Translations under genes and position numbers: made by a program
Notes under the pieces: generated by a model
What the model saw: only the letters and a program-made list of their open reading frames with translations
Database searches by the model: none
Told to the model about the DNA's origin: nothing
Part shown: in pieces, positions 55,280 through 64,000 of the stretch
Layout: each line of letters opens with the position of its first letter
How positions within the stretch are numbered: position 1 is the stretch's first letter
Source of the DNA: the human T2T-CHM13v2.0 reference genome, Homo sapiens
NCBI RefSeq assembly: GCF_009914755.1
Contig: NC_060946.1
Direction: 5' to 3' (one strand)
Length of the DNA stretch: 64,000 bases

Positions 55280-55822
55280 CCCGCGGCCGCGTTCACAGCA
55301 GGCTTGGCGGGGGTTCGGGAATTTCCACAGGGTCTCGGCCTCCCCCACTGTGGGCTCGCGCCTGGCGCCCCTCACCGGGCTTCCAAGCGCTCTTGTCGGT
55401 GTCGCTAGAAAACTCGCAGAGATTGGAGCTGAGAAAAGGCGGGCAAAGTTCCTTTTGATAAGTTATGAATGGGGAAAAAGTGTTTGTAGAACTCATTGTT
55501 AAAACCACGGAGCCCGAGACTCGGCCGGCGCCGGGCCAATCGGAACCCGGAGGCTATTTTGAAATCTCTCCCGTCTCAGCCAACAGGCATGCAGGAGGCG
55601 AATCCCCGCGCCAGCGCCGGCCAATGAGCGCAGCGCTATGCTAAGGAGTCGGGGGCCCGGCCCCTCCGACTGTCAGCGGGTTAAAGATGGAGCCGGCAGG
55701 CGAGGGGCCGCCACGAGGTGCAGGGTCGTCTGGACGGGGACCCGGGGGCAGACGATGGCCGGGATCCTCTTCCGTCTAACCCTCCGCGTCCTGACCGGGC
55801 CCTGGGCGGAAGGGATGTCTGC
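55280..55822 (+). promoter_or_regulatory. CpG-island promoter and probable first exon of the miR-301b/130b host transcript
   Basis: CpG-rich; CCAAT at 55536 and 55621, TTTGAA 55558-55563, GGGAATTTCC 55317-55326, donor GC|gtgagt at 55822/55823; lies about 0.7 kb upstream of the hairpins. Confidence 0.75.
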
Positions 55823-56471
55823 GTGAGTCAGCTGTGTCTGAGGAGGGGATCCTGGGCTGGGCTGGGCGGCCCTACTCGGCGGGTCAGGCGGAGGGGCGCG
55901 GCCGGGATCCCGGGGGCCCTCTTTGGAGCAGGGAACTCTAGAAGGGCGGGGAGCCCCCATCCTCTGCTCCACTCTGGGCCTCCAGGCAGAAGAATATGTT
56001 AGAAAAGAATCCAGAGTGTATCTAGTGCAGGGCAAGGGGCCAGGGATGGAGTCGTCAGCTAGAAGGGGCGCGTCGTCCCGGGGTGGGGCCGCCCTTTTTC
56101 TCCTGGAGCCGCGGGCCGAGTCAGGGCGCAGGGTCGTCGGGCTGTACCCACCCCGCTCCGGGCGCTAGCCGGCTTTGGACTGCGGCTGAGTGCGGGTTCG
56201 TCTTTGTGTGTGCGCCCCCTCCCCTGCGTGGCCCGTCAGCTCCTGCTCCGGGATTGGAACAACCCCCTAGTCTGGGGTTTCTCCTCCACCTCAATCCGGA
56301 GCGTTCTGGGAAAGGCCTGGGTGTCCTGGGTTCTGAAGACCCCAAGGACACACCCCGCTGCGGTCTCCTTCCCTGCCCGGATGGACTGGACGGGGGCTCT
56401 GCCCCACCCACCCATCCATGGTTGAGCTTCCCGCCCTGCGTGTATTGGGGGTGGTGGGGTCCCCCCTGCTG

Positions 56472-56549
56472 GCCGCAGGTGCTCTGACGAGGTTGCACTA
56501 CTGTGCTCTGAGAAGCAGTGCAATGATATTGTCAAAGCATCTGGGACCA
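56472..56549 (+). ncRNA. MIR301B: pre-miR-301b (3p CAGTGCAATGATATTGTCAAAGC 56516-56538; 5p 56481-56502)
   Basis: Hairpin with the AGUGCAA seed of the miR-130/301 family; matches the recalled hsa-mir-301b sequence. Confidence 0.98.
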
Positions 56550-56794
56550 GCCTTGGGGATCTCCCTCCCTACAACCCTCACCTCCCACTCCCCAGGCAGG
56601 GCCCCTTGGGCTTGCAGGCCCTCCCCTCCCCCCTACCCAATTCGCTCCCTTCTCCATGGAAACTTGAGATTCTAGACAGGCCTGGGCCTCTGGGGTCAGA
56701 GGGCACCCTTTCCCCCCGGGCAGAGGCCCCGCCCCAGCCAGCCTGCATTCCAGGTCTCAGATCCCTGCAGACCACCCTGGGGGAGGCACTGGCA

Positions 56795-56876
56795 GGCCTG
56801 CCCGACACTCTTTCCCTGTTGCACTACTATAGGCCGCTGGGAAGCAGTGCAATGATGAAAGGGCATCGGTCAGGTC
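56795..56876 (+). ncRNA. MIR130B: pre-miR-130b (3p CAGTGCAATGATGAAAGGGCAT 56845-56866; 5p 56807-56827)
   Basis: Hairpin ACTCTTTCCCTGTTGCACTAC...CAGTGCAATGATGAAAGGGCAT; matches the recalled hsa-mir-130b sequence. Confidence 0.98.
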
Positions 56877-57355
56877 CAGCCTGCTACCCTGGGAGGGGGA
56901 AAGGGAGCTTGCTGCCTCACTCCACTTTCCAGTTGAGAAGGTTGAGGTGCCCAGAGGGTAAGTGTTTCCACTGATTAGGCACAGATGTGAAGCTGGACTG
57001 GACCCTCCATCAGAGGATCAGGTGGGTGCAGAGCTGGAGAATCATCCCTAAACTCTCCATCCTGTCATGGCTGGACAGGTGCAGGAGCAGACCTCCCCAG
57101 CTTCTGAAAAGCTCTTGTTTGAAGGTCTTTCCACATTGGGTCCCTGGGGTAAGACTGGAACTCCAGGCCTGGTCAGGGTCTTAGGGGAAATACACGCCCA
57201 GTCTTTTGCATGGAAGATCATTCTAGGCCTGGCTTGGGCCCAGTCCTTGCTGGAAGCTTGAACAGGGCCAGGCTCTGGAGAGAATGTTCTTCTGGGTGGC
57301 AGTTGGGTAAGGGGGTAAGGCAGGCCTTTCAGGAGGCAGCCTTCACCCCAGGACG

Positions 57356-60466: not shown

Positions 60467-61944
60467 TCAGTTATGGGTTCTAATCAGGAACAAGAAGTGT
60501 GTAAGATCGTCCCAGATGAGACGGTGAAGCCAGGACCTTCAGAAACGCATTCGAGGGGCAAGAGGAAAAGGACAGCGAGGTGGAGCAGGAGGAACAGGAC
60601 ACTGAGGAGGGGCCGGAGATGCAGCGAGTACAGAGCAAACAAGTGGCTGTAAAGGGGAGGAGAGCGCAGAATCTGGGGAGGCCAATGGAGAGTGAAGGAG
60701 AGGGAGGAGGGTGAAAAGTCCGAACTAGAGGGGTTAGGGGCAGAGTGAAGTTCTCGGGGCGTTGCCTGGATGAGGCCCGGGAGGCTACAGACAGCGAGGA
60801 GGGGCGCCCGTCGGAGGGGACTAGGGGCCTGCCGAGAGGTGGGGACCTTAAAGAAGTTGCTGACCAACCACGTCCTCGGCGCAGCCAAGAGCCCGACCCG
60901 GGTCAAAGGCCCGATGGCCCCTGCGGAACTGGGCCAGGACCCGCGCAGCCGCGTTCGCCCCCTCGAGGTCGTGAGCGCGCGTGCCCAGAGCAACGGGCAT
61001 TGTCGCCTGAGGCAGGCGACTGGGGATTGGCCCCGCCCCCGGCTTCCGCGCGGATTGGCTGGGGCGGGGCGGCGCGGCTGCAGTAGGCTAGAGAGTCCGC
61101 ACCTGCGCCGCGGCCGTGGGGAGAGAGGGTGCGTCCCGGCAGTCCCGCACGACGGGCCCCGCCTCCCCTGGTGACCCCACGCTCCGGCCTCGGGGGGAGT
61201 GGCGGTCGGCGCGCCGAGACCCTCGGGAGCCCCGCCCAGACGCCTGCTCCGCTTCCAGGCCACCCGGGCTCTCCAGCCGCGCTCGCTCGTAGAGATCCTA
61301 GACGAGTTCGACAGCGAGGTCCCGCAGAGCAAGACCTGCCAGCAGATCTCCGAGGAGGACTTGGAGAGGCAGGCGGACACCTACACTGGGCGCGCGCTGC
61401 GCCTCCTCTTCCGCAGCCCCGTCCGCAACCCGTCGCTGGCGGAGAGGGTGGTACAATTGGAACAGCGCGGGCTCTCTTTTTTCCGGATGCGGCCGCGGGG
61501 CATGGGACCGGCTGGGCGGGAACTGTCACTACCCGGGTCCGCCGTCCCCTAGGAAAGAGCTCCGACGATTGGAGCTTTGGGGGCCGGGGATGGGGGTGGG
61601 GTGGAGAGGTCGCCGTCGGCCTAGCTGGGGCTGCAGGGTAGGATCTATCAGAAAGCCGAGGCTGCACAGCCTGGGGAGTGGAGCGGGCAGGCGTCTCACG
61701 CCCCGGACCTCCCCCTGCCCTGCCTCTCCTACTCTTGTTGCAGGCGAAGTTCTTCTGTGTTGTGCAGGCGGAGCTGAACCATTGCAACAGCATGGGCGCC
61801 CTGGAGATGCACGAGCAGGTGGAGCAGCTGAAGCAGAGCATCCACCGCGTGCACCTCTACTCCCGGGGCGAGGATCAACCTCTCCCCGTGCTGGGCCCTG
61901 GGCGGGGGTCTGAGCCCAGTGCAGCCAGGCCGAGGGCTAGGTGA
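60467..61944 (+). pseudogene. Putative unitary pseudogene: three coding-like exons (about 60467-61011, 61259-61486, 61744-61944) downstream of the miRNAs
   Basis: Polypyrimidine/AG acceptors at 60466, 61258 and 61743; phase-0 joins give a continuous peptide with strong GC3 bias; frameshift near 60520-60553, TGA at 60712, donors GC (61012) and AT (61487). Confidence 0.65.
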
Positions 61945-61950
61945 CCACCT
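60750..61950. promoter_or_regulatory. CpG island with an internal CCAAT/GC-box cassette (61026-61070)
   Basis: High CpG density; ATTGG at 61026 and 61054, CCCCGCCCCC 61031, GGGGCGGGGC 61061. Confidence 0.7.
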
Positions 61951-62257
61951 CCATTCTTCCGGTTGGATTTGCCCTCCTTGGATCAGGTTTTATCCAGAGC
62001 AGGAAGGGGCCTGGGCAGTCTGGACCTGGGAGGAGAGGCGCTGCCCCTAGCTAGATTATTTAGTTAGGAGACTGACTTCAGCTCTGCTACTTCCTTCCTG
62101 GCTGTGTGATCCTGAGCAAGTTGGGCCACCTTTCCGAGAGAGAGAGCCCTCACTGCTCACCTTGGTGAGTGTTTTGGAGTGGTGGATGAAGGCCTGTAGG
62201 TAGGGCTGGCTCAAGCAACCAAGCAAACCTGAATCAATTAAAAAAAAAAAAAAAAAA

Positions 62258-64000
<1,743 letters not shown>

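What the first reader, a model, noticed from the sequence alone, without database searches (positions are those of the whole stretch)
60517..61488. Small set of disabling lesions suggests a recent, datable gene loss
Seen: the ATG-60473 frame closes at TAA 60650-60652. The acidic frame opens only after TGA 60517, implying one frameshift near 60520-60553. A single in-frame TGA lies at 60712-60714. Exon A ends GAG|gcaggc (GC, not GT) and exon B ends TTCCGG|atgcgg, one G>A change from a GT donor and exactly in the phase exon C needs. Without that donor, exon B reads on to TAG 61552, and the next canonical donor (gtagga, 61638) lies after this stop. Inference: few lesions and preserved CpGs point to loss within primates, while the miRNAs and promoter were retained.
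Basis: partly seen in the sequence, partly recalled or inferred. Interest (0 to 1): 0.75.

Follow-up and report, generated by a model that had tools for sequence, protein, structure and literature searches.

The report
Old, rearranged TODR1 pseudogene hosting microRNAs
This stretch is the dead human copy of the mammalian gene Todr1, broken by two small inversions and a frameshift tens of millions of years ago rather than recently, and it now serves only as the carrier transcript for two microRNAs.

Summary
The gene model built on them is mostly wrong.

The locus is the human remnant of Todr1 (mouse 2610318N02Rik). RefSeq already calls it a transcribed pseudogene, and PMC8784585 reports no human Todr1.

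So "exon A", its implied frameshift, TGA 60712 and its GC donor lie in a non-coding exon and a CpG-island promoter. They are not lesions.

It is not disabling on its own: an old, in-frame alternative GT donor at 61451 remains.

- start codon is GTA
- a 3-bp and an 18-bp deletion
- GC where the exon-2 donor should be
- a frameshift and stop in exon 3
- the 3' half of the gene lies on the minus strand just past the window

Monkey and ape gene models share the exon 4-5 inversion and the frameshift. Apes share a second, 308-bp inversion. The gene was therefore dead before the monkey/ape split. The result is an ordinary, already annotated pseudogene with a neat structural history.

The parts
56470..56551 (+). 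MIR301B hairpin, retained
   Evidence: Rfam mir-301, 87.6 bits, E 3e-19
56796..56876 (+). MIR130B hairpin, retained; overlaps host exon 2 (56833-56957 in the hub's table)
   Evidence: Rfam mir-130, 47.2 bits, E 2e-7
60467..60627 (+). Non-coding host-transcript exon. GT donor at 60628.
   Evidence: RefSeq table; AG|TCAG acceptor and CGA|GTACAG donor read; no intact orthologue matches it. A siamang model differs from human by a frame change inside it.
60700..61600 (.). CpG island and proximal promoter. It has two inverted CCAAT boxes (ATTGG) and GC boxes at about 61023-61075.
   Evidence: G+C 0.65-0.77 and CpG o/e 0.70-0.98; sequence read; RefSeq alternative first exons start at 61238 (hub table); four of six frames open for 141-222 codons
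61289..61291 (+). Lost start codon: GTA where orthologues have ATG
   Evidence: M1 invariant in 36 of 36 intact orthologues. All 9 non-human catarrhine models that include this exon have M here. Human reads V.
61289..61486 (+). Ancestral coding exon 1 (TODR1 aa 1-74): open but decayed. One codon (Phe17) is missing between 61336 and 61337. Six codons are missing between 61453 and 61454, a deletion shared with other catarrhines.
   Evidence: tblastn E 1e-21 to Otolemur; alignments
61451..61452 (+). Proximal GT donor, in frame with 61744; an old alternative donor still annotated in human
   Evidence: GTG|GTACAA; RefSeq exon 61238-61450; 'AERV|AK' junction in 17 of 138 models, 15 of them neither human nor gibbon
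61487..61488 (+).
   Evidence: TTCCGG|ATGCGG. Intact orthologues end exon 1 here (...SFLW|AK). Siamang reads V = GTx here, and macaque, colobus and orang-utan models splice here.
61744..61867 (+). Ancestral coding exon 2 (aa 75-115, phase 1 at its end), open
   Evidence: tblastn E 1e-17 to 2e-20; translation
61868..61869 (+). GC where the exon-2 donor should be. No RefSeq transcript in the hub's table uses it; they run on to 61940 or 62164.
   Evidence: CGGG|GCGAGG. Intact orthologues and monkey models join ...YS(Q/R)|D here. Whether outgroups have GT could not be read from proteins.
61870..64000 (+). Ancestral intron 2, up to the window's end. The rest of the gene lies just outside the window and was read from L003/L005. 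In window numbering:
- Exon 3, first part: 64311-64461 (+), with a stop at 64445-47 and a frame change shared with monkeys.
- 308-bp block inverted in apes: 64462-64769 (-), holding the rest of exon 3 plus about 250 bp of intron 3.
- Last coding exon, antisense: about 64770-65069 (-), with a 13-bp tandem duplication at 65036-61 and a stop at 64946-48. Its last 20 or so codons were not found.
- Exon 4, antisense: 65332-65403 (-).
   Evidence: - tblastn of intact orthologues and primate models
- Three-frame reads
- One Papio ORF maps plus 64312-64461, minus 64769-64467, plus 64768-65022
- Gibbon, siamang, orang-utan and the old human model cross 64461|64462 on plus
- Duplication D4

Best explanation
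The finding lies in LOC107985532, the human unitary pseudogene of TODR1 (mouse Todr1 / 2610318N02Rik). TODR1 is a single-copy placental gene of about 300 codons in five coding exons.

The ancestral coding sequence starts at window 61289. It runs 61289-61486 and 61744-67, then continues about 2.4 kb downstream, just past the window's end.

The gene was disabled in or before the last common ancestor of Old World monkeys and apes. The lesions of that age are:
- an inversion that turned coding exons 4-5 onto the other strand and cut off the end of the last exon
- a frameshift in exon 3
- an in-frame 18-bp deletion in exon 1, with relaxed constraint

A second, 308-bp inversion with one breakpoint inside exon 3 followed on the ape stem.

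The changes absent from every other catarrhine model are late decay of a gene that was already dead. These are loss of the ATG (GTA at 61289), loss of the Phe17 codon, and G>A in the distal exon-1 donor (61487). The date of the GC at the exon-2 donor could not be fixed.

The transcription unit survives because it carries MIR301B and MIR130B and has two active promoters. The upstream exon with the 'acidic frame' and the G+C-rich 'exon A' are non-coding exon, intron and promoter.

Shown here: homology, exon map, strand of each block, which models share which state. Inferred: direction and order of the events, and their ages.
For: Identity:
- The old human model XP_016884654.1 is 55% identical to mouse TODR1 over aa 1-115, E 8e-36.
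- The position between SDF2L1 and PPIL2 matches the mouse gene as described in PMC8784585 section 10.
- Whole-genome searches with Otolemur and mouse proteins hit only this locus, 4 of 4 matches each.

Ancestral structure:
- 36 intact orthologues from all four placental superorders have 79% mean column identity and an invariant M1.
- Only 61289-61486 and 61744-61867 match within the window.

Rearrangement:
- In human, aa 170-190, 191-214 and 215-260 of intact orthologues map to the minus strand at 64769-64716, 65403-65332 and 65050-64913. aa 1-168 map to plus.
- One Papio ORF maps plus 64312-64461, minus 64769-64467, then plus 64768-65022.
- M. nemestrina and colobus models do the same.
- Four ape or human models cross 64461|64462 on plus.
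- The monkey plus-strand block 64768-65022 is the antisense of the last exon.

Relaxed constraint: human differs at 11 of 38 columns that are invariant in 36 intact orthologues, and 6 of those differences are shared with colobus.

Late lesions.

Non-coding nature of exon A.
Against: - No primate DNA was available. All cross-species states are read from predicted protein models, which choose their own ATG and splice sites and can carry assembly errors.
- Synonymous states cannot be read. GGC and GGT both give Gly at 61867-69, so the age, and even the reality, of a GT>GC change at 61868-9 is not shown.
- No platyrrhine, tarsier, chimpanzee or gorilla model was found (0 of 122 hits; none among the 120 listed of 189). 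The upper bound of the loss, and the branch of the 'human-only' lesions, stay open.
- The right-hand breakpoint of the exon 4-5 inversion and the last 20 or so codons were not located.
- Exons 1 and 2 have stayed free of stops and frameshifts in human, gibbon, siamang and colobus. That could hint at some residual use.
Confidence: 0.85

Rival explanations
1. A gene starting at ATG 60473, with a long acidic exon A (to 61011), exon B and exon C, was lost recently through four or five small lesions: one frameshift, one TGA, a GC donor and a G>A donor.
For: All the named codons exist, and the frames of A, B and C are compatible. A siamang Gnomon model (P0130) does translate part of the acidic frame, spliced at 60627. 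The 61487 donor change is real.
Against: - No intact orthologue has coding sequence upstream of 61289 that is homologous to this frame.
- The annotated donor is at 60628, so 60712 and 61012 are not exonic.
- Open frames are the rule in this CpG island.
- The 3' half of the gene is inverted in monkeys and apes alike.
- 6 of the 11 human changes at invariant residues are shared with colobus.
Confidence: 0.04
2. The locus is not fully dead. Human transcripts still yield a short protein carrying the TODR1 N-terminal module. This could start from the in-frame ATG at 60619 in the exon 60467-60627 spliced to 61259, or from ATG 60770 as in the withdrawn model XP_016884654.1.
For: - The exon-1 and exon-2 frames are open over 125 and 100 codons.
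- The splice 60627|61259 keeps the acidic frame in phase with exon 1, and 61450|61744 is in frame.
- The locus is transcribed (RefSeq table; PMC8784585 section 10).
- The module is 55% identical to mouse.
Against: - 11 of 38 invariant residues are changed, the native ATG is gone, and Phe17 is deleted.
- M. fascicularis, Papio, Nasalis and orang-utan models are frameshifted inside exon 1 or 2, so the module is not conserved across catarrhines.
- ATG 60473 lies upstream, out of frame.
- RefSeq withdrew the protein and calls the gene a pseudogene.
- No Ribo-seq or peptide evidence was examined.
Confidence: 0.07
3. The minus-strand exons are an assembly error, or an inversion polymorphism of this one genome, not a fixed feature.
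For: Only one human assembly was read here.
Against: - The older GRCh38-based model XP_016884654.1 maps at 100% identity across the left junction, plus 64309-64665.
- Three ape species share the human layout at the left junction of the 308-bp block, and the orang-utan model also carries exon 4 antisense.
- Three monkey species share the exon 4-5 inversion.
Confidence: 0.02

Closest known systems
Mouse Todr1 (2610318N02Rik), 'Target of DROSHA 1'
   Same: It is the orthologue by position (between Sdf2l1 and Ppil2; PMC8784585 section 10) and by sequence (55% identity over aa 1-115). Remnants of all five coding exons are recognisable. The human locus hosts mir-301b and mir-130b (hub table), and PMC6914872 (passage) places mouse miR-130b in an intron of 2610318N02Rik.
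   Different: Mouse has an open 918-nt frame whose protein impairs haematopoietic stem-cell function (PMC8784585, sections read). Human has no start codon, broken splice donors, a frameshift, stops, and exons on the wrong strand. PMC8784585 compared a different 331-nt ORF, found it 'unlike TODR1', and concluded that there is no human homologue. The remnant described here is not mentioned in the passages I read.
Unitary pseudogenes of primates (single-copy genes lost in a lineage, intact in other mammals; GULO is the textbook case, recalled)
   Same: The locus sits at the syntenic position, keeps its introns, has no paralogue in the genome, carries several disabling lesions, and has intact orthologues in other mammals.
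   Different: The earliest datable lesions here include an inversion of two exons rather than only point lesions. The dead gene also stays transcribed as a microRNA host.
Non-coding microRNA host genes
   Same: The spliced, polyexonic transcript carries MIR301B and MIR130B (hub table). PMC6914872 (passage) already calls the mouse gene a 'noncoding RNA' host of miR-130b.
   Different: In most mammals the same transcription unit also encodes a conserved protein. Lemur and Rousettus models join the host's first exon to the TODR1 coding exons, and the lemur model also runs through the MIR130B region. The purely non-coding state is a catarrhine novelty.

Membership tests
Unitary pseudogene | Lies at the position of an intact orthologue in other species | tested here: met
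   Homology to 36 intact placental orthologues. The locus lies between SDF2L1 and PPIL2, like mouse Todr1 (hub table; PMC8784585 section 10).
Unitary pseudogene | Disabling lesions in the ancestral coding sequence | tested here: met
   GTA at the start; frameshift and stop in exon 3; exons 3b, 4 and 5 on the minus strand; 13-bp duplication and stop in the last exon
Unitary pseudogene | No functional paralogue or parent copy elsewhere in the genome | tested here: met
   Whole-genome six-frame searches with Otolemur and mouse proteins gave 4 of 4 matches at this locus each time.
Unitary pseudogene | Not a processed (retrocopied) pseudogene: introns kept | tested here: met
   Exon blocks are separated by 257 bp and about 2.4 kb, at the junctions used by orthologues
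TODR1 protein family (functional member) | Open frame of about 300 codons from the conserved Met to the conserved C-terminus | tested here: not met
TODR1 protein family (functional member) | Residues invariant across placentals are kept | tested here: not met
   11 of 38 invariant columns in aa 1-115 are changed in human
Recent (great-ape or human) gene loss with few lesions | Intact frame in gibbons and Old World monkeys | tested here: not met
   All 10 non-human catarrhine models are truncated, frameshifted or read antisense sequence. The exon 4-5 inversion and the exon-3 frameshift are shared with monkeys.
microRNA host transcript | Canonical pre-miRNA hairpins inside the transcription unit | tested here: met
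   Rfam mir-301 and mir-130, both above gathering score
MYB/SANT-domain proteins (claimed for LOC107985532 in PMC11377751) | A three-helix MYB/SANT fold in the protein | not testable with these tools
   - Pfam: no family for mouse, Otolemur or the human model below E 0.1.
- PDB profile search: best E 0.07, not significant.
- Structure prediction was not accepting jobs.
- The one supplement file held as text does not name the locus.

The most novel reading that the evidence does not exclude
TODR1 is a DROSHA-controlled brake on myeloid differentiation in mouse. On this reading it was killed in the catarrhine (or earlier anthropoid) ancestor by a small inversion, with one breakpoint in intron 3 and the other inside the last coding exon. 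It was then scrambled further by a nested 308-bp inversion on the ape stem. That would make it a cleanly datable case of gene death by micro-inversion, and would mean the whole catarrhine clade, not just humans, lacks this protein while keeping its microRNA cargo.
Probability: 0.7. Interest if true: 0.35.

Novelty: already known. Interest (0 to 1): 0.28.

Why it matters
Mouse work makes Todr1 one of two mRNAs whose cleavage by DROSHA keeps blood stem cells able to differentiate (PMC8784585; PMC6223193 passage). A mouse knockout screen lists 2610318N02Rik among its bone-mineral-density genes, with human orthologue 'N/A' (PMC7822523 passage).

Humans do carry the recognisable remnant, and the protein appears to have been lost in all Old World monkeys and apes sampled. 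This tells users of mouse and macaque models where this pathway can and cannot be transferred.

The case also warns against reading long open frames in CpG islands as exons. It corrects one detail in print: the human locus is not 'unlike TODR1', it is its wreck.

Tried and rejected
- Pfam found nothing for the human exon translations, mouse TODR1, Otolemur or the old human model. The best hits were E 0.1-0.24, below cut-offs.
- A profile of 36 orthologues against PDB sequences gave SIN3 at E 0.07, which I do not count.
- The ESM Atlas gave no usable hit.
The MYB/SANT claim of PMC11377751 is therefore untested.
- The supplement of PMC11377751 that is held as text does not contain the locus name.
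I used a second single protein instead.
- The last 20 or so codons of the ancestral gene (KDDSENDPGS...) were sought in window 63001-70000 with eight orthologue C-termini and not found.
- Inverted repeats that could have mediated the 308-bp inversion were sought. Only a 12-nt repeat near both junctions was found, which is too short to weigh.
- Searches for prior descriptions: '2610318N02Rik' (9 papers), 'LOC107985532' (2), 'Todr1' (8), 'TCONS_l2_00017631 / MIR130BHG / MIR301BHG / LOC70458' (1), and 'unitary pseudogene' + 'microinversion' (0). I opened seven of these papers, at the passages that name the gene (plus section 10 of PMC8784585). None of those passages describes the lesions or inversions, and the listed titles and abstracts of the rest point to other topics. 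Johanson et al. 2015, the original Todr1 paper, is not in the library and was not read.
- Considered and dropped: that the acidic exon is an ancestral coding exon, and that preserved CpGs date the loss.

Full report
**The observation.** All are present:
- ATG 60473-75 opens a 59-codon frame closed by TAA 60650-52.
- TGA 60517-19 precedes an acidic frame (DGEARTFRNAFEGQEEKDSEVEQEEQDTEEGPEMQR...) that ends at TGA 60712-14.
- GAG|GCAGGC is at 61009-17, and TTCCGG|ATGCGG is at 61481-92.
- The exon-B frame runs on to TAG 61550-52, and GTAGGA is at 61638.
- 61486 ends a codon and 61744 begins one.

The raw observation is therefore accurate. The open question is whether these places are exons of a former gene.

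**What the locus is.**
- Papers naming the mouse gene 2610318N02Rik led to PMC8784585 (section 10 read). [quoted passage not shown]
- RefSeq (hub table) calls the human locus, LOC107985532, a transcribed pseudogene that hosts MIR301B and MIR130B. Rfam confirms both hairpins.
- A search with the translation of 61259-61486 returned a withdrawn human model (XP_016884654.1), several catarrhine models and whale proteins.
- A second search with a whale protein returned 189 hits, of which the best 120 were listed. These are proteins of about 300 aa from Afrotheria, Xenarthra, Laurasiatheria, Glires, tree shrew, colugo and four strepsirrhine primates. No anthropoid was among them.
- Thirty-six of these align with 79% mean column identity.
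- The old human model is 55% identical to mouse TODR1 over residues 1-115, E 8e-36.
- Whole-genome searches with the Otolemur and mouse proteins hit only this locus.

This is therefore a single-copy gene without a paralogue.

**Where the ancestral coding sequence lies.** tblastn of intact orthologues finds only two coding exons in the window: aa 1-74 at 61289-61486 and aa 75-115 at 61744-61867. All 36 intact proteins begin with Met at the codon that is GTA (Val) in human, 61289-91. The nine non-human catarrhine models that include this exon also have Met there.

Nothing upstream is coding in the orthologues:
- Five match 60911-61039 in a different frame. This reflects DNA conservation of a promoter segment that holds two ATTGG (CCAAT) boxes and GC boxes.
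- RefSeq's exon there is 60467-60627, with a GT donor at 60628. TGA 60712 and the GC at 61012 are therefore intronic or promoter sequence.
- Region 60700-61600 is a CpG island, with G+C 0.65-0.77 and CpG observed/expected 0.70-0.98.
- At 71% G+C, four of the six frames of 60715-61552 are open for 141-222 codons. Frame continuity there carries no weight.
- A siamang model that does translate the acidic exon differs from human by a frame change inside it, as expected for non-coding sequence.

- Intact orthologues end exon 1 at ...RGLLSFLW|AK, which is exactly human 61486|61487.
- A siamang model that reads through has Val (GTx) where human has ATG. Macaque, colobus and orang-utan models splice at this site.
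- The G>A at 61487 is therefore supported. Judged from these models, it arose after the orang-utan split.
- It is not disabling on its own. The GT at 61451 gives an in-frame junction to 61744, is annotated in human (exon 61238-61450), and is used in 17 of 138 fetched models. Fifteen of those come from whales, carnivores, ungulates, bats and elephant.

- The start codon is lost.
- One codon (Phe17, invariant in 36 of 36) is missing between 61336 and 61337.
- Six codons (RKGKQT/A) are missing between 61453 and 61454, in human and in every other catarrhine model that is readable there.
- GC at 61868-9 stands where intact orthologues and monkey models splice exon 2 to exon 3. Gly is coded by GGC and GGT alike, so proteins cannot show whether outgroups have GT.
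- Human differs at 11 of the 38 columns of aa 1-115 that are invariant in the 36 intact proteins. Six of these differences are shared with colobus, and three (M1, F17, R99) are seen only in human among the five rows compared.

**The 3' half.** The window's own genome could be searched. I read on to 70000 in window coordinates through L003 and L005.
- Exon 3 starts at 64311 behind a good acceptor. Its entry frame reads DTKKTRKKPRQKKPEPNLLWDRLTSPCLPPTLLPPLPLPPP, then meets a stop at 64445-47. The ancestral continuation (ATTTMVSVVTSSPP) is in another frame.
- The rest of exon 3 (VYTMPTVFGPFPPLPCKS) is on the minus strand at 64769-64716.
- The last exon (LVDLTPLVLNPGGFHFSY...) is on minus from 65069 down to about 64770.
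- Exon 4 (VKNLDISRSEVKLNWNGLS...) is on minus at 65403-65332.
- The last exon carries a perfect 13-bp tandem duplication at 65036-65061 and a stop at 64946-48. Its last 20 or so codons were not found anywhere in 63001-70000.

**Dating from other primates' models.**
- One Papio ORF maps in three blocks: human plus 64312-64461, minus 64769-64467, plus 64768-65022. M. nemestrina and colobus models show the same switch.
- Monkeys therefore have exon 3 in one piece, as intact mammals do. Human differs by a 308-bp inversion (64462-64769).
- Gibbon, siamang, orang-utan and the GRCh38-based human model all run straight across 64461|64462 on the plus strand. This inversion is thus shared by apes and is not an artefact of this assembly.
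- The monkey block 64768-65022 is the antisense of the last coding exon. The last exon of the orang-utan model is the antisense of exon 4. So the inversion of exons 4-5, with one end inside the last exon, predates the monkey/ape split.
- The exon-3 frame change is shared too. Monkey and ape models enter exon 3 in the shifted frame (HQE[ED]EKEAKTEETRT) and leave it in the ancestral one.
- Individual lineages carry further private damage: a frameshifted exon 2 in M. nemestrina, Papio and one colobus model, and frameshifts inside exon 1 in M. fascicularis, Papio, Nasalis and orang-utan.
- A search seeded with the gibbon model found 11 anthropoid models from 9 species, all catarrhine and none intact. 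It found no platyrrhine, tarsier, chimpanzee or gorilla model among 122 hits. The upper bound of the loss and the exact branch of the 'human-only' lesions therefore remain open.
- From recalled divergence dates, the gene has been dead for at least about 25-30 million years.

**Verdict on the interpretation.** The loss is within primates, and the microRNAs and promoter are retained. It is neither recent nor due to few lesions, and the CpGs are kept because this is a CpG island.

**Mechanism, as inferred.**
1. On the stem of catarrhines or earlier: structural inversion of exons 4-5, a frameshift, and relaxed constraint.
2. On the ape stem: a second, nested inversion.
3. On the way to human: loss of the ATG, of the Phe17 codon and of the distal donor.
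4. Throughout: continued transcription as a non-coding microRNA host.

**Limits.**
- No primate DNA was available. All cross-species states come from predicted proteins.
The fold and biochemical role of TODR1, including the MYB/SANT suggestion of PMC11377751 (passage read), are untested.

**Novelty.** The pseudogene status is in RefSeq, and the absence of a human Todr1 is in print (PMC8784585). In the passages I read from seven of the papers found by five literature searches, none gives the exon-by-exon remnant, the two inversions or the catarrhine-wide age. The original 2015 Todr1 paper could not be read.

Noticed in passing
window 55638-55820 and 56720-56872: N-terminal extensions of a Lemur catta model (P0057) and a Rousettus model (P0064) map to the host transcript's first exon. 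For the lemur, the extension also runs straight through the MIR130B hairpin region. In other mammals the TODR1 coding exons and the pri-miR-301b/130b transcript are therefore joined in one transcription unit. The 'stem-loops' that make mouse Todr1 a DROSHA target might be these microRNA hairpins. PMC8784585 has 0 occurrences of 'miR-130b'.
   Followed up: partly
window 61304: The GRCh38-based model XP_016884654.1 has Lys (LDKFD) where this genome has Glu (LDEFD). This is a G/A difference at a CpG between two human assemblies.
   Followed up: no
window 61023-61075: Two ATTGG (inverted CCAAT) boxes and GC boxes lie about 170-215 bp upstream of the RefSeq alternative start at 61238. The adjacent segment 60911-61039 is conserved enough to appear as the same accidental peptide in 5 of 41 N-extended models: whale, rabbit (two), pangolin and clouded leopard. 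RefSeq marks 60989-61318 as a 'silencer'.
   Followed up: partly
L005 2036-2061 (window numbering 65036-65061, outside the window): A perfect 13-bp tandem duplication (AGTCAGATCAACC twice) sits at the start of the antisense last exon, duplicating the codons for VDLT (D4).
   Followed up: yes
L005 1466-1477 and 1780-1791 (window numbering 64466-64477, 64780-64791, outside the window): A 12-nt repeat (CCTGGGGCTGCC / CCTGGGGCTCCC) lies just inside the left junction and just outside the right junction of the 308-bp inversion. In the monkey orientation the two copies would form a short palindrome at the junction with the antisense last exon (D6).
   Followed up: no
protein P0008 (Physeter) and P0127 (Orcinus): The sperm-whale model has Arg instead of the conserved start Met and is truncated (171 aa). 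The killer-whale isoform is also short (237 aa). This may be independent decay of TODR1 in toothed whales, while baleen whales look intact.
   Followed up: no
PMC11377751, section 'DNA-binding domains': LOC107985532 is listed as a new MYB/SANT-domain protein. If that rests on the withdrawn 343-aa human model, the last 119 residues of that model are out-of-frame exon 3 plus antisense intron (plus 64309-64665). Only a domain in residues of about 106-200 could be genuine. The residues used could not be found.
   Followed up: partly
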